Position numbers and translations under genes: made by a program. Below are positions 29,571 to 60,932 of a DNA stretch of 64,000 nucleotides, one piece after another. Source of the DNA: a virus (taxonomy: Duplodnaviria; Heunggongvirae; Uroviricota; Caudoviricetes; Demerecviridae). Each line of letters starts with the position of its first letter. Position 1 is the stretch's first letter. The DNA is taken from the IMG/VR virus record IMGVR_UViG_2757320985_000001; one strand, given 5' to 3'. The notes under the pieces were generated by a model that searched no databases, was not told the origin of the DNA, and saw only the letters and a program-made list of their open reading frames with translations.

Positions 29571-29647
29571 TTTTTAGTGGAAAATCGCAGGGCACTTAAG
29601 GGTAGCAGGTGAGTGGTGAGGTCCAGAAATTGTTACCCCACTAAAAA
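29571..29647. repeat. Perfect 10-bp inverted repeat (TTTTTAGTGG / CCACTAAAAA) enclosing 57 nt
   Basis: Seen directly. Lies between the nadR start and the TTGACA promoter of the plus-strand island. Confidence 0.5.
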
Positions 29648-29672
29648 TCCGGGGGCAATTTTTAAAGACCCC

Positions 29673-29701
29673 TTGACATTTTCGCTGGGGTAGTGTAAAG
29701 T
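29673..29701 (+). promoter_or_regulatory. sigma70-consensus promoter: TTGACA, 17-bp spacer, TAAAGT
   Basis: TTGACAttttcgctggggtagtgTAAAGT. The -35 context TTGACATTTTCGC is shared with the promoter at 59241. Confidence 0.55.
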
Positions 29702-29762
29702 ATATGTTATGGATGAGTGATCAAAGAGACACACATTTTCTATATACTAGGAGGTGTCAAAA

Positions 29763-30749
29763 ATGACAGATGAAGTAACTAAGAAACCTGAGACCGTAAG
29801 TGAAGTCGCAGCAGAACTGAGACGTCATGAGGAATCAGACAAACATAAGTGGGAGAAGGTCAAAGCCTACGAAAAAGAACATCGTGAACACGATGAAGAT
29901 GATGAAGAAGATGACGATGATGAACATTGTCATAAACATGGAAAACATAAAATGCAAGAACCAGTAAACGTATTCACTAGTGGCTTCCCTGGCCTAATGG
30001 GTGGTTACCCAGCAGTTGCTAACGGTGCTTTCGGTGGTGAAGGTATGGGTCTATTCGGAGCTATCTTAATCGGTGCTCTATTAACAGGCGGATTCGGTGG
30101 TTTCGGTGGTTTTGGCCGCGGTGCTGGTGTTGCCGCTGAGGGAACTGCTGTGGACGCGATCCTTTCTAACCAGGATACTGCAAGTATTCTAGCTGCAATT
30201 AACACTGCTCGTACTGAAGCGAATCAAGGTACTGGTGCTGTTCTGAGCGCTGTTAATGGTGTAGGTGCTGCTCAAGCTTCTAGTACTCAACAGATTCTGA
30301 CTACTGTGTATGGTACTGGTGCTAACCTGTCCAACCAGATCTGTCAGGAGACTCGTAACGTTATTCAGGGTCAGTTTGATCTTTCTCGCCAGATGGATCA
30401 AGCTTTCGCTGCTAACCAGATCGCTCGTGCACAAGACAAGTTTGACTCTGCTCAGATTGCTTTCCAGCAGTCTCTTCAGACCAATAACCAGTTTGCCGCT
30501 GTTCAGGCTCAGATGTGCGCTAACCAGAACGCTATCGAACGTCAGCTTGCTGAGTGCTGCTGTGAACTTCAGACTGCGATCGCTGGTGTAACTACTGCGC
30601 GTATCCAGGACGAACTGAACGAATGCCGTCTGCGTGAAGCAATCGCTGCAGGTAGCGGTGCAAATGGTCAGGTAATCAACCAAATCGCTGTAAGCCTGGG
30701 TGCAATTACTCAGACTCTAGCAGCTCTACAGGCTAAAGTACCAGCCTAA
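29763..30749 (+). CDS. Gly/Ala/Gln-rich protein with an acidic/His N-terminus and a GFGG hydrophobic segment
   Basis: ATG at 29763 with an AGGAGG RBS (the ORF-track start at 29754 is GTG). Host-like codon usage. Function unknown. Confidence 0.6.
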   Translation: MTDEVTKKPETVSEVAAELRRHEESDKHKWEKVKAYEKEHREHDEDDEEDDDDEHCHKHGKHKMQEPVNVFTSGFPGLMGGYPAVANGAFGGEGMGLFGAILIGALLTGGFGGFGGFGRGAGVAAEGTAVDAILSNQDTASILAAINTARTEANQGTGAVLSAVNGVGAAQASSTQQILTTVYGTGANLSNQICQETRNVIQGQFDLSRQMDQAFAANQIARAQDKFDSAQIAFQQSLQTNNQFAAVQAQMCANQNAIERQLAECCCELQTAIAGVTTARIQDELNECRLREAIAAGSGANGQVINQIAVSLGAITQTLAALQAKVPA

Positions 30750-30771
30750 TCTTTAAGGGGAGGAGCCCATT

Positions 30772-31200
30772 ATGAGTAAATATGGTTTTGTGAACAACGG
30801 ATTTAATCAACCAATGGGCTCCCAGCAGCCCATTCCGGGTCTGGATAACCCCTACTTACAACAGTTGCAACAGCGTTTAGCAGAAGCGCAACAGATGCAG
30901 CAGCAACTTCAGCAAAACCCTGGAAGTGTGAGCCCTATGCAAATGATGCAGCAAATGAGTGGGCAGTCGCAAATGCCTCAACAAATGCCTCAACAAATGC
31001 AGCAACAGGTGCCACAGCAGCAAGTTCAGCAACAAACCCAACAACCGCAGGTATCTGCGGAAGGACAGGCAGTACTAGCCCTTTTCGAAGACTTCGCAAA
31101 GACAGAGGACGGGAAACAGCTTGTATCACTTATGGGTAAGTTTAATAGCTTCTGCCAAAGCCAAGTTGCAAAAGCTCAAAATGGTGGTAATAACTCCTAA
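30772..31200 (+). CDS. Q-rich (prion-like) low-complexity protein, 142 aa
   Basis: QQMPQQMPQQMQQQVPQQQVQQQTQQPQ tract. GGAGG RBS. Confidence 0.55.
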   Translation: MSKYGFVNNGFNQPMGSQQPIPGLDNPYLQQLQQRLAEAQQMQQQLQQNPGSVSPMQMMQQMSGQSQMPQQMPQQMQQQVPQQQVQQQTQQPQVSAEGQAVLALFEDFAKTEDGKQLVSLMGKFNSFCQSQVAKAQNGGNNS

Positions 31201-31209
31201 GGAGGAATT

Positions 31210-31404
31210 ATGTGTTGCAGAAAATCTGTTTCGTGCTGCCCAATGCCTGTAGCACGTTGTTGCTCTCCAGCAATGTTTACGCAAATACCGGTGTTCAATC
31301 CGTTTGCCTTTAAGCCTACTCTTATCCTGCCCCCTAGAGTAGATTTTCAGTCAAGATTGGTCTCCCGTATGGGTGGTTGCTGTACACCGAGAGTATGGTT
31401 CTAA
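31210..31404 (+). CDS. Cys-doublet small peptide, 64 aa
   Basis: Four CC doublets (MCC, SCC, RCC, GCC). AGGAGG RBS. Followed by a terminator. Confidence 0.5.
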   Translation: MCCRKSVSCCPMPVARCCSPAMFTQIPVFNPFAFKPTLILPPRVDFQSRLVSRMGGCCTPRVWF

Positions 31405-31407
31405 ACC

Positions 31408-31445
31408 AAAAACAAAAGCCCCTGCCGAAAGGTAAGGGGCTTTTT
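31408..31445 (+). terminator. rho-independent terminator (GCCCCTGCC-GAAAG-GTAAGGGGC then TTTTTC)
   Basis: Hairpin plus U-run seen directly after the 31404 stop. Confidence 0.65.
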
Positions 31446-31457
31446 CTTTTGCCTTAA

Positions 31458-31497
31458 ATACAGAAAAGCCCGCGCTCTCGGAGGAAACGCGGGCTTG
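31458..31497 (-). terminator. hairpin terminator (GCCCGCG ... CGCGGGC) after the minus-strand SPFH gene
   Basis: Inverted repeat seen directly. Convergent with the preceding terminator. Confidence 0.5.
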
Positions 31498-31519
31498 GTT
31501 CGAAGATTACGTGTAACTA

Positions 31520-32464
31520 TTACTTGTTACGCATATCCATGATCATTTGACCATCGTAGCCAGTACCGACAACAGTCTGCGGCACACCACCTTGGTATTT
31601 TTCAGCACGAAGCATTTCAACTTCCAGCTGCTTCCAACGAATCATTTCAGGAGTAATAGTACGTTGCAGAGCGGCGTTAGCTTCAGCTTCTTTCTTAGCT
31701 GCGTACAGTTTAGCATCTGCGTCACGTTCGTTAGCTACTGCCATGTTTTCACGAGCGGAACGATCTGCCTCAGCTTGCTTAACTTTCTGCTGTGCTTCTT
31801 GTTCAACACGAGCCAGTTCAGCTTTTGCAGCGTTAACTTGTTCTTCACGAACTTTGGTGTTCTGTACCTGTTCCATGATTACCGGTGGCAGAGTAATATC
31901 CTGAAGGAATACTTGCTTAACGGTGTAACCATAAGGACGCGCATACTCCTCTACTTCTTGCTGAATAGCAGTTTGCAGTTGAGCCTGAATCTTAGCGTCG
32001 AACAGATCTTGTGCTTTTGGTACAGACTTACCAAACTCACGAATCGTAGATAGCATCTTCTCTTCAACGTACTTGTTCAGAGCTTGATCCTGAGTACCTG
32101 CGTTAACACGGTTCATAGGAGCTTTAGCACCATCAAACTGCAACATAACGGTAATGTCAACTGTAGACTTAAACTTATCCTGGCTAGGAACCTGAAGTTT
32201 ATCCAGTTTCATAGAAATATCTTTCGTACTAAAAGTATCAAAAGAGGCGAATGGGTTGACAATATGGAACCCCGGCAATACAGGATTAGGACTAACTTTA
32301 CCCAGGAAAGTCTGAGTTTTAACCGTACCGTCCTGAACAACTGTATAGGAATTGAGAGCCAGAATAAGAGCGCCAAGACCAACTACAGCACCAACACCCC
32401 AACGTTTAATAGTACGAATTACTTTTTGATCGGAAGTCAGTTCTTTAGTGTTTTTAGTAAACAT
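31520..32464 (-). CDS. SPFH/band-7 (HflK/C-prohibitin-like) membrane protein
   Basis: N-terminal TM segment, SPFH core, and a long Ala/Glu/Gln-rich coiled-coil C-terminus. Confidence 0.6.
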   Translation of the reverse strand: MFTKNTKELTSDQKVIRTIKRWGVGAVVGLGALILALNSYTVVQDGTVKTQTFLGKVSPNPVLPGFHIVNPFASFDTFSTKDISMKLDKLQVPSQDKFKSTVDITVMLQFDGAKAPMNRVNAGTQDQALNKYVEEKMLSTIREFGKSVPKAQDLFDAKIQAQLQTAIQQEVEEYARPYGYTVKQVFLQDITLPPVIMEQVQNTKVREEQVNAAKAELARVEQEAQQKVKQAEADRSARENMAVANERDADAKLYAAKKEAEANAALQRTITPEMIRWKQLEVEMLRAEKYQGGVPQTVVGTGYDGQMIMDMRNK

Positions 32465-35569: not shown

Positions 35570-36208
35570 TTACTCTACTTCGATAAAAGTAGAGGCGTTG
35601 GACTCAGACAGAACAAAGTCAACGTTGGTTGCAAAGTCCTGGTATTCTTCGTCGTGTTGCTTGATCAGCTTTTCCAGCTCCAGCGGATCGATCAGGAACG
35701 GAGTGTTCTTGAGTTCCAGCAGGTTAAGCTGCATCTTAACTTCATCCTCGGAAGTCTTCTTGTCGCGGGTAGCCATGGTATCCTGCAAACGCTCATACTT
35801 GGCATCAAACTGAGCCTTCTGAGTGTTAAACTTAACAGTAGCAGCATGGAACTGCTTACGCATGTTAGCCAGCAACTGAGCCTTGAGTTCCATAGAACGC
35901 TTAGCTTCGATTGCTTCCGCAACAGTCATAGAGCGAGAGCCGATCTCTACAACAGTTTCAGCATTGCTCTTGATCAGCGCAGCTTTCAGACGATCACGCT
36001 GGGACATCATATCCAGCAGAGACTGGAAATCAGTCTTAATACGAGTAGACAGAGCATCTACTTCGATTGCAGCGCCAACTACAACTTGGTTCTTGTCCTT
36101 ACCTTCACCAACAGCAATCAAAAGCTGTTGTTCAGTAGCTTTACGGATTTTAGCTTCCAGAGACTTGATAGTTGCCAGAGCACGAGTTTTAGAGATACGA
36201 GTAGTCAT
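35570..36208 (-). CDS. abundant-type acidic coiled-coil protein, 212 aa (host-like codon usage)
   Basis: GC-rich codon choice distinct from the neighbours. Function unknown. Confidence 0.55.
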   Translation of the reverse strand: MTTRISKTRALATIKSLEAKIRKATEQQLLIAVGEGKDKNQVVVGAAIEVDALSTRIKTDFQSLLDMMSQRDRLKAALIKSNAETVVEIGSRSMTVAEAIEAKRSMELKAQLLANMRKQFHAATVKFNTQKAQFDAKYERLQDTMATRDKKTSEDEVKMQLNLLELKNTPFLIDPLELEKLIKQHDEEYQDFATNVDFVLSESNASTFIEVE

Positions 36209-56837: not shown

Positions 56838-57248
56838 ATGACTACTCCAACTCAGTGGACTGATGAACTGTTCGAAAAAATGTCTTCCGACTACGTTGCT
56901 CGTATGGAGCAATTCCCAGAAGATGAGCGTCCGGGCGTTAGCATGGAAATTGTTAGCGAAATTGCTCAGGAAAATGGTGTAACTCCGAACGGTTTTCGTA
57001 TGAAGCTGACCAAAGCAGGTCTGTATATCAAGAAAGCTGCTGGCTCTACTTCTAAATCAAGCGCATCTACTGGAGAAAAAGCTTCTGGTGGTTCTCGTAC
57101 TTCCAAAGCTCAGGCTCACTCCGATCTTCGCTCTGCATTCTCTGATGCTGGCTTAGCACCGGACTTCCTGGACGACGCAATCATCGACAAGCTGACCGGT
57201 AAAGCAGCTGCTCATCTAGCAGAAGCTGTCCGAGCTATCACTAAGTAA
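56838..57248 (+). CDS. hypothetical Ser/Ala-rich protein, 136 aa (host-like codons)
   Basis: Strong RBS. Low-complexity middle. Confidence 0.55.
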   Translation: MTTPTQWTDELFEKMSSDYVARMEQFPEDERPGVSMEIVSEIAQENGVTPNGFRMKLTKAGLYIKKAAGSTSKSSASTGEKASGGSRTSKAQAHSDLRSAFSDAGLAPDFLDDAIIDKLTGKAAAHLAEAVRAITK

Positions 57249-59389: not shown

Positions 59390-60172
59390 TTGATGAAAAT
59401 CGAAATTCCAACACAATGCCCCTCTTGTGGTTCTAAGCTAGATCTTGTCAACGGGCAATTATTCTGTAGGAATAAGTCCAACTGTCCAGCGCAATCAAGT
59501 AAGTTAATCGAGAACTTCTGCACAAAAATGAAGTTAAAGGGCTTTGGCCCGAAAACTATTGAGAAGCTGGAGCTGACTAAGATCTCAGAACTGTTTTACC
59601 TGACCGAAGAAGATTTGGTCGGAGCTGTGGGTAGCAAGGTTGCCGCTAAATTGATTAGCGAGTTAAATACTAAGGTTCGCGGAGACACTGACTTTGGTTC
59701 AGTTCTCGGTTCTTTAGGAATTACTCTTATTGGAGAGGTTGCAGCAAAGAAACTGTCCCAAAATTGCACTAGCTTCCACGATGTGAAGGCTGACGGCAAG
59801 GCTGGAGAAAATTACAAAACCTGGCTAAATTCCCCACAAGGCAAGGATGTTATTGAATTACCATGGAAATTCTCAACAGGTATTCGAGGTGCTAAAGCAG
59901 ATATAATCATTACAGATGATTTAGTTGCCCAGCCAAATGGAATCACGGTCTGTATTACCGGATCTTTGCAAGATTTTGCAAATAGAACGGATGCAACAAA
60001 CTATTTAGAAAGTCTAGGATATACGGTTAAGAAGTCCGTTACCAAAGACGTCAAATACCTAATCTGTGAGGATGAATCAAAACGTTCTTCCTCATCTTAT
60101 AAGAAAGCCGAAACGAATGGGATAGAAATCCTGTCGATTAAAGAACTATTGGAGAAAAATAATAATGTCTAA
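59390..60172 (+). CDS. ligB: NAD-dependent DNA ligase, subunit B (Zn finger, HhH, BRCT)
   Basis: CPSCGS...C Zn finger, helix-hairpin-helix region and C-terminal BRCT-like domain. Continues the LigA architecture. Confidence 0.75.
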   Translation: MMKIEIPTQCPSCGSKLDLVNGQLFCRNKSNCPAQSSKLIENFCTKMKLKGFGPKTIEKLELTKISELFYLTEEDLVGAVGSKVAAKLISELNTKVRGDTDFGSVLGSLGITLIGEVAAKKLSQNCTSFHDVKADGKAGENYKTWLNSPQGKDVIELPWKFSTGIRGAKADIIITDDLVAQPNGITVCITGSLQDFANRTDATNYLESLGYTVKKSVTKDVKYLICEDESKRSSSSYKKAETNGIEILSIKELLEKNNNV

Positions 60173-60932
60173 ACTGAACTGGAACGTAGAAGGTGTAACC
60201 GAGTCTCTGAAAGCAAAAGCCACTGCTCTGGGTGTTGCTGTAATCTCTCAAGAACAAGTAGCTGCTATCGCTGCTGAATTGGCTGCCGAGACTGGCAAAG
60301 ACGTTACCGCTCGCTCTGTTGGCTCTAAGCTGCGTAAAGAAGGTTTCGAAGTACAGAAAGCAAACGAAGTACAGAAATCCCCGTGGACTCCTGAGCAGGA
60401 AGCTGAACTGGTTGATTTCCTGAACGCTCATGCTGGTCAGTATACTTACGCTGAAATCGCTGCTGCTGTAGCTGGTGGTCAGTTCGGTGCTAAGCAGGTA
60501 CAGGGTAAGATCCTGAGTCTGGAAATGACTGCTTCTGTTAAGCCAACCGAAAAAGCTGCTGCTGTTCGTTCCTTCACTCCTGACGAAGAAACTGATTTCG
60601 TTAATCAGGTTGTTGCTGGTGCTACTATTGAAGCTATCGCTGCTCACTTCGGTCGCAATATTAAGCAGATCCGTGGTAAAGCTCTGAGTCTGCTTCGTGA
60701 AGGTCGTATCGCTGCTATGCCGGTACAGGAAACTTCAAGTGCTAAAACTCGTGAAGATCTGTTAGAAGGTCTGGATCTGGCTAACATGACTGTTGCTGAG
60801 ATCGCCGAGAAAACTGGTAAGTCTGAGCGCGGTGTTAAATCTATGCTGTCTCGTCGTGGTCTGGTTGCTAAGGACTATGATGGTGCCGCTAAGCGTGCTA
60901 AACTGGATGCAAAAGCTGCGGCTGCTGAATAA
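60165..60932 (+). CDS. Ala/Glu-rich abundant-type protein, 255 aa (possible DNA-binding early protein)
   Basis: Host-like codon usage. Internal repeat (EAIAAHFG... / AEIAAAVAGG...). Confidence 0.5.
   Translation: MSKLNWNVEGVTESLKAKATALGVAVISQEQVAAIAAELAAETGKDVTARSVGSKLRKEGFEVQKANEVQKSPWTPEQEAELVDFLNAHAGQYTYAEIAAAVAGGQFGAKQVQGKILSLEMTASVKPTEKAAAVRSFTPDEETDFVNQVVAGATIEAIAAHFGRNIKQIRGKALSLLREGRIAAMPVQETSSAKTREDLLEGLDLANMTVAEIAEKTGKSERGVKSMLSRRGLVAKDYDGAAKRAKLDAKAAAAE

What the first reader, a model, noticed from the sequence alone, without database searches (positions are those of the whole stretch)
29763..31445. Plus-strand three-gene island with host-type promoter: Gly/Ala/Gln-rich protein, prion-like Q-rich protein and a Cys-doublet peptide
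The island sits between nadR and the SPFH gene, inside the otherwise minus-strand region. Upstream are a 10-bp inverted repeat and a TTGACA promoter.

The three products are:
- A 328-aa protein with an acidic/His-rich N-terminus (DEDDEEDDDDEHCHKHGKHK), a GFGGFGGFG hydrophobic Gly segment and a long Ala/Gln repeat region.
- A 142-aa protein dominated by QQMPQQMQQQ tracts (prion-like).
- A 64-aa peptide with four CC doublets.

All three have strong RBSs and E. coli-like codon choice (CTG/GCT/CGT), unlike the AT-rich neighbours. A strong intrinsic terminator closes the unit. The composition suggests condensate-forming or envelope-associated proteins, or a metal-binding or modified peptide system. 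I know of no characterised function for this combination.
Basis: seen in the sequence. Interest (0 to 1): 0.75.

Follow-up and report, generated by a model that had tools for sequence, protein, structure and literature searches.

The report
Conserved accessory three-gene operon in T5-like phages
The flagged island is a real, probably early, dispensable three-gene operon of T5-like phages (T5.077–T5.079) that encodes a membrane-anchored long helical protein with an invariant triple cysteine, a glutamine/proline-linked adaptor and a usually unannotated cysteine-doublet micropeptide; the same trio recurs in unrelated phage groups and no function is known.

Summary
The window is a T5-like Epseptimavirus. 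The island is the homologue of T5.077/078/079, with promoter P12 upstream and a strong terminator downstream.

All three ORFs are real. About 222 T5-like records conserve them. The same trio, in the same order, also occurs in Pseudomonas phage KPP23, an N4-like contig, a lambdoid-like contig and two distant T5-like contigs. The third ORF is usually not annotated.

- **ORF1:** acidic/His-rich head, glycine-zipper membrane segment, about 195 residues of continuous helix, and an invariant C-x12-CCC motif.
- **The CCC motif:** it defines a previously unnamed, apparently virus-only domain superfamily. Members also sit in contigs with eukaryotic-virus-type genes.
- **ORF2:** two conserved helical modules joined by a variable Q/P linker. 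It is not a conserved prion domain.
- **ORF3:** a fast-evolving peptide with an N-terminal Cys cluster and an invariant CC doublet.

The operon has been lost at least twice among close relatives, and its products were not detected in BF23 virions. T5-like phages already have spanins, so it is not the spanin.

The codon claim is only partly right. GC3 equals that of the neighbours, and only ORF1 shows high-expression bias.

My best guess (low confidence) is a Cys-linked, membrane-anchored coiled-coil complex built early in infection with a conditional role in host or phage conflict.

The parts
29656..29667 (+). A/T-rich element (CAATTTTTAAAG) just upstream of the -35 hexamer; possibly UP-like.
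   Evidence: The TTTTAAAG block is invariant across window, T5, ESCO40, TrudiGerster, STG2, L022 and L023.
29673..29701 (+). Sigma-70 promoter: TTGACA, 17-nt spacer, TAAAGT. The discriminator ATATG follows at 29702-29706.
   Evidence: T5 records annotate it as promoter P12 / putative early promoter T5P21. Known T5 early promoters carry ATATT in the discriminator (PMC7472727), a 4/5 match here.
29634..29692 (.). Imperfect inverted repeat (TACCCCACTAAAAAT / ATTTTCGCTGGGGTA) bracketing the -35 hexamer. It is clade-specific and of doubtful function.
   Evidence: It is present in the T5/Epseptimavirus clade but absent in L022 and L023.
29702..29762 (+). 5' UTR, including the Shine-Dalgarno sequence AGGAGGT at 29749-29755.
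   Evidence: It is identical, wherever the aligned segment extends, in the window and four T5-like phages. TrudiGerster's supplied segment stops 13 nt before the ATG. Sequence.
29763..30749 (+). ORF1 (328 aa; T5.077 homologue; PHROG 8119). It has an acidic/His-rich N-terminal region with a conserved helix, then a glycine-zipper hydrophobic segment, then about 195 residues of continuous helix.
30042..30116 (+). ORF1 residues 94-118 (GMGLFGAILIGALLTGGFGGFGGFG). This is a TM-like glycine zipper with the patterns G96xxxA100xxxG104 and A105xxxG109xxxG113.
   Evidence: Kyte-Doolittle score is 1.72 over 19 residues and 2.07 over 15. Eighty-nine homologues have an equivalent segment, followed by R (53) or N (27).
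30516..30563 (+). The invariant Cys motif C252-x12-C265C266C267 of ORF1. It is the signature of the CCC-domain superfamily.
   Evidence: These columns are invariant. The CCC is the only invariant feature across 30 distant members. Of 119 weaker profile hits, 82 carry it. In heptad register C265 falls in a core position.
30772..31200 (+). ORF2 (142 aa; T5.078 homologue; PHROG 7894). It has a conserved N-terminal helix, a variable Q/P-rich linker, and a conserved C-terminal domain (LFEEF..TEDGKQL...KFN.FCQ) with an invariant Cys.
31210..31404 (+). ORF3 (64 aa; T5.079 homologue). It is a Cys-doublet micropeptide with an MCC start, the core SCCPMPVARCC, an FNPF motif and GGCC near the C-terminus. 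Its Shine-Dalgarno sequence AAGGAGG (31199-31205) overlaps the ORF2 stop codon.
   Evidence: It is intact in about 222 records, mostly unannotated. All 8 Cys are invariant in 7 T5-like phages, with dN/dS mostly 0.2-0.4. Equivalent ORFs exist in KPP23, L009, L022, L023 and L024.
31415..31451 (+). Intrinsic terminator closing the operon: a GC-rich bulged hairpin followed by TTTTTCTTTT.
   Evidence: T5 annotates an efficient bidirectional terminator here. A degraded remnant survives in phages that lack the module.
31466..31496 (-). Terminator hairpin of the convergent SPFH gene. It marks the boundary and is not part of the operon.

Best explanation
The island is an accessory operon, T5.077-T5.079, read from a strong sigma-70 promoter of the early class. 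It is not needed for replication, virion structure or lysis.

**Proposed mechanism (inferred).**
- ORF1 inserts into the inner membrane through its glycine-zipper segment.
- ORF1 oligomerises through a helical rod of roughly 190 residues. The core of that rod contains a layer of invariant cysteines (C-x12-CCC).
- ORF2 acts as an adaptor built from two helical modules joined by a flexible Q/P linker. It carries one invariant Cys.
- ORF3, the Cys-doublet peptide, joins the other two through thiol chemistry, either disulfides or a shared metal-thiolate site.
- The resulting membrane-bound complex changes the infected cell envelope in a way that helps only under some conditions, for example exclusion of competing phages or evasion of a host defence.

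**Shown:** the operon anatomy, conservation of all three proteins as a set, the helical and TM-like character of ORF1, the invariant cysteines, dispensability, and absence from virions.

**Inferred:** early and high expression, oligomerisation, thiol-mediated assembly, membrane topology, and the conflict-related role.
For: - **Operon anatomy:**
- **The trio travels as a set.** It is found in six lineages from at least four phage types: T5-like, KPP23, N4-like L009, lambdoid-like L024, and the distant T5-like contigs L022 and L023.
- **TM-like segment:** conserved across 89 homologues.
- **Helical rod:** AlphaFold2 predicts a single uninterrupted helix for residues 210-328 (pLDDT 82, pTM 0.34) and continuous helix from 175 to 324 in the full-length model. 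A heptad register puts F244, M251, I258 and C265 in line.
- **Conserved cysteines in all three proteins:**
- **Accessory status:** two different deletion junctions occur in close relatives that grow on laboratory hosts.
- **Not a virion component:** the products are not among 18 BF23 virion proteins found by MS/MS (PMC10644984).
- **Likely high expression of ORF1:** its codon bias is of the high-expression type.
- **Early class:** the promoter annotation and discriminator fit the T5 early class.
- **Virus-only:** there are no cellular homologues.
Against: - There is no experimental datum on expression, localisation, interaction or phenotype.
- Topology is unresolved. Charge bias mildly favours a cytoplasmic C-terminal rod (K+R 1.10 on the C-flank against 0.38 on the N-flank). 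The long charged N-terminal head argues for the opposite orientation.
- ORF2 and ORF3 have no signal peptides. If the rod is periplasmic, they cannot reach it.
- About half of the CCC-domain relatives have no membrane segment, so the domain's core activity need not be membrane-related.
- No hit to any known defence or counter-defence model.
[quoted passage not shown] That set includes both carriers and a non-carrier of the module.
Confidence: 0.33

Rival explanations
1. Metal-handling system. The His/Asp/Glu-rich head of ORF1, its glycine-zipper (channel-type) membrane segment, the Cys layer in the rod and the metallothionein-like Cys clusters of ORF3 would together bind, sequester or move a metal ion (Zn, Cu, Ni or an Fe-S cluster) in the infected cell.
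For: - His-rich runs occur in several lineages, for example HHYHHHHHEH in P0012 and HKHKHKH in P0034.
- ORF3 homologues begin with N-terminal Cys clusters: MCC, MCGCGC and MSCNCGCGG.
- C265 sits at a coiled-coil core position. From memory, designed three-stranded coils bind metals at such positions.
- The sequence fits a glycine-zipper pattern.
Against: - ORF3 is rich in Phe, Pro and Trp and is only 12.5% Cys, unlike metallothioneins.
- The L009 peptide has only two CC doublets.
- The His-rich head is not conserved in KPP23.
- No known metal-binding family matches.
- Loss of the module is tolerated in standard media.
Confidence: 0.2
2. Envelope-spanning, spanin-like or lysis-modulating device. 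ORF1 would sit N-in/C-out, so that its rod of roughly 28 nm crosses the periplasm. The Cys residues would be oxidised to intermolecular disulfides, as in Rz/Rz1. The device would tune lysis timing or envelope integrity.
For: - The architecture (membrane anchor plus long coiled coil plus small Pro/Cys-rich partner) resembles two-component spanins.
- The module lies next to lysis genes in L024 (holin, lysozyme, Rz-type Phage_lysis).
- Distant CCC members lie near endolysin-type genes in L006 and L007.
- The window's own endolysin is about 3 kb away.
Against: [quoted passage not shown]
- ORF3 has no signal peptide or lipobox, and ORF2 has no signal peptide.
- The promoter is annotated as early class, not late.
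- The module is dispensable.
- Relatives occur in contigs with Gram-positive-type genes (Amidase_3, XkdW) and in eukaryotic-virus-type contigs, where spanins make no sense.
Confidence: 0.12
3. Condensate or prion-like scaffold. The FG/GG-rich segment of ORF1 and the Q-rich ORF2 would drive phase separation and organise a compartment in the infected cell.
For: - The composition fits: GLFG/GGFGG repeats and QQMPQQMQQQ tracts.
- Distant relatives have GYG/GFG-rich stretches.
Against: - The Q-rich tract is the least conserved part of ORF2. It is replaced by Pro-rich or short linkers in homologues.
- In distant homologues the Gly-rich segment has an unmistakably hydrophobic TM-type core, for example GSFWIIILFLFAMFG, with conserved flanks.
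- The conserved features are helices and cysteines.
Confidence: 0.08

Closest known systems
PHROG 8119 and PHROG 7894 (phage protein families of unknown function); T5.077, T5.078 and T5.079 of phage T5
   Same: These are direct homologues. ORF1 matches PHROG 8119 at E=1e-200 and ORF2 matches PHROG 7894 at E=8e-80. The genes are syntenic with T5.077-079.
   Different: These families carry no functional information. ORF3 matches no PHROG and is missing from most annotations.
Two-component spanins (lambda Rz/Rz1)
   Same: Both combine a membrane-anchored coiled-coil protein with conserved Cys and a small Pro-rich, Cys-containing partner encoded next to it. The predicted rod is long enough to cross the periplasm.
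   Different: - The membrane segment starts at residue 94, not at the N-terminus.
- The small partner has no lipoprotein signal.
- There is a third, Q/P-linked protein.
- The promoter is early class.
- The module is dispensable.
- T5-like phages have separate spanins.
Early, dispensable membrane-acting exclusion proteins of virulent phages (T5 Llp; T4 Imm and Sp). This comparison is from my own knowledge, apart from the cited title.
   Same: These are early-expressed accessory proteins that act at the envelope. [quoted passage not shown] 1994, seen in the reference lists.
   Different: There is no sequence similarity. Those are single small proteins without a coiled-coil rod or Cys clusters. 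No exclusion phenotype has been tested here.
Glycine-zipper transmembrane proteins ((G/A/S)xxxGxxxG motif)
   Same: ORF1 residues 96-113 fit the pattern twice, and the feature is conserved across homologues.
   Different: This is a motif class, not a homologous family. Whether it forms a channel or only an anchor is unknown.
Cys-rich small proteins (metallothioneins; high-sulfur keratin-associated proteins with CCxP repeats). This comparison is from my own knowledge.
   Same: ORF3 has CC doublets next to Pro (CCPMP, CCSPA, CCTPR) and N-terminal Cys clusters.
   Different: - ORF3 has a lower Cys fraction and many aromatic residues.
- It occurs in a bacterial-virus context.
- There is no homology, so any similarity is at most convergent.

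Membership tests
T5.077-079 / PHROG 8119 + PHROG 7894 module | Significant full-length match of ORF1 and ORF2 to the family profiles, with synteny to T5. | tested here: met
   E=1.2e-200 and 7.9e-80 with full-length coverage. The order, promoter and terminator match T5.
   ORF1 has RQLAECCCELQ...ARIQDELNECRL. Of 119 profile hits, 82 share the motif. The hits also match PHROG 8119, 9288 and 16490, and P0038 finds T5-like ORF1 in a reciprocal tblastn.
Two-component spanin | o-spanin: a small outer-membrane lipoprotein with a signal peptide and lipobox Cys. | tested here: not met
   ORF3 starts MCCRKSVSCC, with no hydrophobic signal sequence or lipobox. The same holds in its homologues.
Two-component spanin | i-spanin: an N-terminal TMD (type II) with a periplasmic coiled coil. 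| tested here: inconclusive
   The coiled-coil-like helix is present. The hydrophobic segment begins at residue 94, after a charged head. Topology is unresolved.
Two-component spanin | Being the phage's required outer-membrane disruption function, expressed late with the lysis genes. | tested here: not met
   T5-like phages have other spanins. The module is absent from viable relatives. The promoter is annotated as early.
Prion-like / Q-rich domain protein | A Q/N-rich low-complexity domain that is the conserved, functional core. | tested here: not met
   The Q-rich stretch is present in the window but is replaced by Pro-rich or short linkers in homologues. Conservation lies in the flanking helices.
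RiPP (ribosomally synthesised, post-translationally modified peptide) system | A precursor peptide encoded next to one or more modifying enzymes. | tested here: not met
   The operon has only three ORFs and none has an enzyme domain. No enzyme gene recurs next to the trio in six lineages.
cAMP-dependent protein kinase catalytic subunit (database label on ORF2 homologues) | A protein kinase catalytic domain. | tested here: not met
   Pfam finds no kinase domain, only weak low-complexity hits below threshold.
Virion structural protein | Detected in purified virions. | tested here: not met
   BF23 encodes the trio, but none of the three is among its 18 virion proteins found by MS/MS (PMC10644984).
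Known anti-phage defence or candidate defence proteins (PADLOC) | A match to a defence-system model. | tested here: not met
   No hits for ORF1, ORF2 or ORF3.
Glycine-zipper membrane segment | A (G/A/S)xxxGxxxG pattern inside a hydrophobic stretch long enough to span a bilayer. | tested here: met
   G96xxxA100xxxG104 and A105xxxG109xxxG113. Kyte-Doolittle score is 1.72 over 19 residues. Actual membrane insertion cannot be tested with these tools.

The most novel reading that the evidence does not exclude
The CCC-helix proteins may form a new, virus-only class of thiol-rich coiled-coil machines shared by tailed phages and eukaryotic large DNA viruses. In the phage trio, the rod, the Q/P-linked adaptor and the Cys-doublet micropeptide would assemble through metal-thiolate or disulfide chemistry. 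The result would be a membrane-bound device with a mechanism not yet described for any virus, for example envelope remodelling or exclusion of competitors.
Probability: 0.25. Interest if true: 0.85.

Novelty: categorically new. Interest (0 to 1): 0.62.

Why it matters
T5 is a classical model phage, yet this probably strongly expressed operon has stayed 'hypothetical' for twenty years, and its third gene is missing from most annotations.

This analysis adds four things:
- The three genes travel together across unrelated phage types.
- They are accessory and have been lost at least twice.
- ORF1 carries the signature of a large, unnamed, apparently virus-restricted domain family that reaches into eukaryotic-virus-type contigs.
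- Natural pairs with and without the module already exist, for example BASEL phages TrudiGerster and TrudiRoth, or JLBYU40 and JLBYU43.

A function for this module would annotate hundreds of phage genomes. It could also reveal a new way in which viruses act on the cell envelope or on thiol and metal chemistry.

Tried and rejected
**Hypotheses rejected.**
- **Spanin.** T5-like phages have holin, endolysin and Rz-like spanins elsewhere, and ORF3 lacks a lipobox.
- **Virion protein.** The products are not in the BF23 virion proteome.
- **Kinase ('kapc').** No kinase domain is present.
- **RiPP system.** No modifying enzymes are present.
- **Prophage moron or cellular origin.** Two scans of 185,579 species-representative genomes found no relative. 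IMG/VR returned only T5-like isolates.
- **Conserved operator.** The inverted repeat around the -35 hexamer is absent in distant relatives.

**Searches that returned nothing useful.**
- Sequence libraries (Pfam, NCBIfam, PADLOC, PDB sequences) gave no significant match.
- Rfam gave only sub-threshold hits on the terminator hairpins.
- A search with the ORF2 C-terminal domain found nothing through the word index.
- A search with the CCC-domain alignment found only unnamed metagenomic proteins.
- Literature searches for T5.077-079, for literal motifs, for T5 RNA-seq supplements and in the accessory-gene screen found nothing on this locus.
- In the BASEL paper's text, all T5-like phages are sensitive to Fun/Z. 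That set includes both carriers and a non-carrier of the module. I did not inspect the per-phage data in Fig 6E and S1 Data.

**Structure.**
- The full-length AlphaFold2 model was of low confidence (pLDDT 46).
- The C-terminal domain gave one confident long helix with no tertiary fold, so I did not run fold searches because they would be meaningless.
Full report
**Identity of the window and check of the observation.**
The 2-kb region is 100% identical to Salmonella phages 118970_sal2 and 100268_sal2, which are T5-like phages; near-identical relatives such as Stitch are classified in Demerecviridae, Epseptimavirus. It matches more than 400 T5-like records. The three + strand ORFs are exactly as described: 29763-30749 (328 aa), 30772-31200 (142 aa) and 31210-31404 (64 aa). 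They lie between a minus-strand nadR-like gene and a minus-strand SPFH/band-7 gene. In the T5 reference genome they are T5.077, T5.078 and T5.079. Promoter P12 precedes them. An 'efficient bidirectional rho-independent terminator' and a major genome nick follow them.

The promoter TTGACA-17-TAAAGT is at 29673-29701. Each ORF has a strong Shine-Dalgarno sequence, and a GC-rich hairpin plus T-run closes the unit.

Two sub-claims need correction.
- The inverted repeat is a 15-nt, 80% match bracketing the -35 hexamer. It is confined to the T5/Epseptimavirus clade.
- The high GC of the island comes from amino-acid composition. ORF1 GC3 is 0.35, within the range of most window ORFs (about 0.25-0.43). 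ORF1 does show a GCT/CGT/GGT preference typical of highly expressed genes, but the SPFH gene and a few others share it. ORF2 does not show it.

**All three ORFs are genuine genes and travel together.**
tblastn finds ORF1, ORF2 and ORF3 in about 222 phage records each. ORF3 is not annotated in most of them.

Outside the T5 group, Pseudomonas phage KPP23 has the same order. ORF074 (320 aa) and ORF073 (143 aa) are clear homologues. The annotated ORF072 is in the wrong frame. The neighbouring frame encodes MCCNQPVPQCCGPF...RCCKKFDCC.

The trio also occurs in four metagenomic contigs:
- an N4-like contig next to the virion RNA polymerase gene (L009);
- two distant T5-sized contigs (L022, L023);
- a contig with a lambdoid-type lysis cassette and antiterminator Q (L024), where the peptide reads ...RCCPMPVPRCC...GGCCGLI. 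That is nearly the window's SCCPMPVARCC...GGCCTPRVWF.

Alignments define each partner family.
- **ORF2** is a conserved N-terminal helix (LQQLQQ.LAEAQ.LQ.Q), a variable Q/P-rich linker and a conserved C-terminal domain (LFEEF..TEDGKQL...KFN.FCQ) with an invariant Cys.
- **ORF3** is an N-terminal Cys cluster, an invariant CC doublet and an FNPF-like motif.

Within seven T5-like phages all eight Cys of ORF3 are invariant. dN/dS is mostly 0.2-0.4 where there is enough divergence to measure it.

**Anatomy of ORF1.**
Alignment of 25 homologues shows four regions:
- a variable acidic/His-rich head containing one conserved helix;
- a Gly-rich hydrophobic segment (residues 94-118);
- a long Ala/Gln/Asn-rich region;
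- a highly conserved C-terminal third with invariant C252 and C265-C266-C267.

The hydrophobic segment scores 1.72 (19-residue Kyte-Doolittle window) and fits the glycine-zipper pattern twice. In 89 homologues an equivalent segment is followed by Arg (53 cases) or Asn (27 cases). In distant members its core is unmistakably TM-like, for example GSFWIIILFLFAMFG.

AlphaFold2 on the full protein is of low confidence (pLDDT 46). It predicts continuous helix from about residue 129 to 324. The C-terminal 119 residues, run with a broader alignment, give one uninterrupted helix (pLDDT 82, pTM 0.34). That is the behaviour expected of a coiled-coil subunit modelled alone. In heptad register F244, M251, I258 and C265 line up. 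The N-terminal half of the rod has about 3.67-residue periodicity instead.

Charge bias is K+R 0.38 on the N-flank and 1.10 on the C-flank. This mildly favours a cytoplasmic C-terminal rod. The long charged head argues the other way, so topology is unresolved.

**A wider, unnamed, virus-restricted domain family.**
A profile search of 1.84 billion representative proteins found only five strong clusters. It also found about 118 weaker hits. Of the 119 hits examined, 82 carry CCC in the context ...QLEAcKNk..L..QlAECCCElKe...R(l/v)RDaL. About half of them have no membrane segment.

They link PHROGs 8119, 9288 and 16490, all of unknown function. No member carries a name in any source. A reciprocal search with a distant member finds T5-like and KPP23 ORF1 in return.

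The contexts are varied:
- phage contigs with Amidase_3, Peptidase_M15, sigma-70-region-4 or XkdW-type genes (L006-L008);
- a 168-kb phage contig (L012);
- a 38-kb contig with a Pox_A32-type packaging ATPase above Pfam's threshold and a kinase-cyclin gene (L010);
- a 119-kb contig where the gene sits near a eukaryotic-type Rpb1 (L014).

Two scans of one genome from each of 185,579 bacterial and archaeal species found no relative.

**The module is accessory.**
Many Epseptimaviruses have flanks 96-99% identical to the window but have nadR directly abutting the SPFH gene. Examples are TrudiRoth, rokbiter, S132, SH9 and atrejo. At the junction, roughly 29612-31370 is missing. A decayed remnant of the last ORF3 codons and of the terminator remains. 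This points to an old deletion of the whole unit from promoter to ORF3.

In the Tequintavirus JLBYU43 the primase-like gene lies 95 bp from the SPFH gene, while its relative JLBYU40 carries the module. That is a second loss with a different junction. These phages grow on E. coli K-12 or Salmonella, so the operon is dispensable in the laboratory.

**What it is not.**
[quoted passage not shown] ORF3 also has no lipoprotein signal.
- **Not a virion component.** BF23 encodes the trio, but none of the three is among the 18 proteins detected in its virions (PMC10644984).
- **Not a kinase.** The 'kapc' label found in several records is a poly-Q artefact.
- **Not a recognisable RiPP, defence or RNA element**.
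- **Not described in the literature held here**.

**Expression class.**
Both T5 annotations place an early or host-type promoter here. The neighbouring divergent promoter P15A was validated as early by primer extension. Known T5 early promoters carry ATATT in the discriminator (PMC7472727). The window has ATATG after TAAAGT, a 4/5 match. Early, strong expression is therefore likely but remains an inference.

**Best explanation and rivals.**
I propose a membrane-anchored, oligomeric coiled-coil protein (ORF1). Its core Cys layer, together with the single invariant Cys of ORF2 and the Cys doublets of ORF3, would hold a three-protein complex together by disulfide or metal-thiolate bonds. The complex would be built early and would provide a conditional advantage at the envelope, such as exclusion of competitors or evasion of a host defence. 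Confidence in this is about one third.

The rivals are:
- a metal-handling role, suggested by the His-rich head, the glycine zipper and the metallothionein-like N-termini of ORF3 homologues;
- an envelope-spanning, lysis-modulating rod;

**Novelty and interest.**
By sequence and predicted structure the module resembles no characterised system. Its proteins are known only as hypothetical ORFs and 'unknown' PHROGs.

What this analysis adds:
- the definition of the trio as a unit that moves between unrelated phage types;
- the recovery of the conserved micropeptide;
- the CCC-domain superfamily and its reach into eukaryotic-virus-type contigs;
- the natural presence/absence pairs that make a functional test easy.

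Interest is moderate to high. Many phage accessory genes are unknown. Few of them sit in a model phage, behave as conserved multi-gene sets, and carry such a distinctive invariant motif.

Noticed in passing
L003:7969-8151 (Pseudomonas phage KPP23, AB910392): The annotated ORF072 (L003:7971-8165) is in the wrong frame. The conserved gene is a 60-aa MCC...CC...CC..CC peptide in the neighbouring frame.
   Followed up: yes
window 30772-31200 and homologues in AY587007, Seabear, Sepoy, ESCO40 and JLBYU40: Several GenBank records label ORF2 homologues 'cAMP-dependent protein kinase catalytic subunit (kapc)'. No kinase domain is present, so the name is a poly-Q artefact.
   Followed up: yes
L002:2675-3465 (T5 AY587007) versus L004:1565-2530 (T5 NC_005859): One T5 record splits ORF1 into ORF072 and ORF073, while the reference record has an intact T5.077. 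This is probably a sequencing or annotation difference.
   Followed up: partly
window 29702-29762: The 5' UTR of the operon is identical wherever aligned in the window and four T5-like phages (TrudiGerster's segment stops 13 nt before the ATG). The ORF1 N-terminus diverges, so the leader may be under extra constraint.
   Followed up: partly
window 31520-32464 (-): The convergent SPFH/band-7 gene has the strongest high-expression codon signature in the neighbourhood (CTG 0.57, CGT/CGC 1.0, GGT/GGC 0.94). It is retained in phages that lost the module. RefSeq calls it 'lipoprotein'.
   Followed up: partly
just 3' of the operon terminator (T5 NC_005859 39746-39747; about window 31460-31500): T5 records place a major single-strand nick (32.6% site) right after the operon's terminator.
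   Followed up: no
L006:6934-8599, L007:4365-5191, L008:3235-4395: Distant CCC-protein loci share a conserved downstream set. It comprises a beta-type protein of about 100 aa (SPVT..P....R..L.FQN.G) and a protein of about 175-211 aa with a G(Y/L)KRM(H/F)RY motif. The CCC gene directly follows a small sigma-70-region-4 protein in L008 (Pfam), and a 103-aa ORF that looks similar by eye in L006. In L007 the upstream ORF is unassigned.
   Followed up: partly
L010 (38-kb contig) and L014 (119-kb contig): CCC-domain proteins occur next to a Pox_A32-type ATPase and a kinase-cyclin gene (L010), and near a eukaryotic-type RNA polymerase Rpb1 (L014). Some of these members end in RS-rich or Arg-rich tails.
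   Followed up: partly
window 35570-36208 (-), 56838-57248 (+), 60165-60932 (+): These three other genes share the strong CTG/CGT/GCT/GGT codon bias seen in ORF1, so they are probably highly expressed.
   Followed up: no
window 30772-31404: ORF2 and ORF3 are in the same reading frame, separated only by TAA and three codons. In KPP23 the frames differ, so readthrough fusion is unlikely to be the conserved mode.
   Followed up: partly
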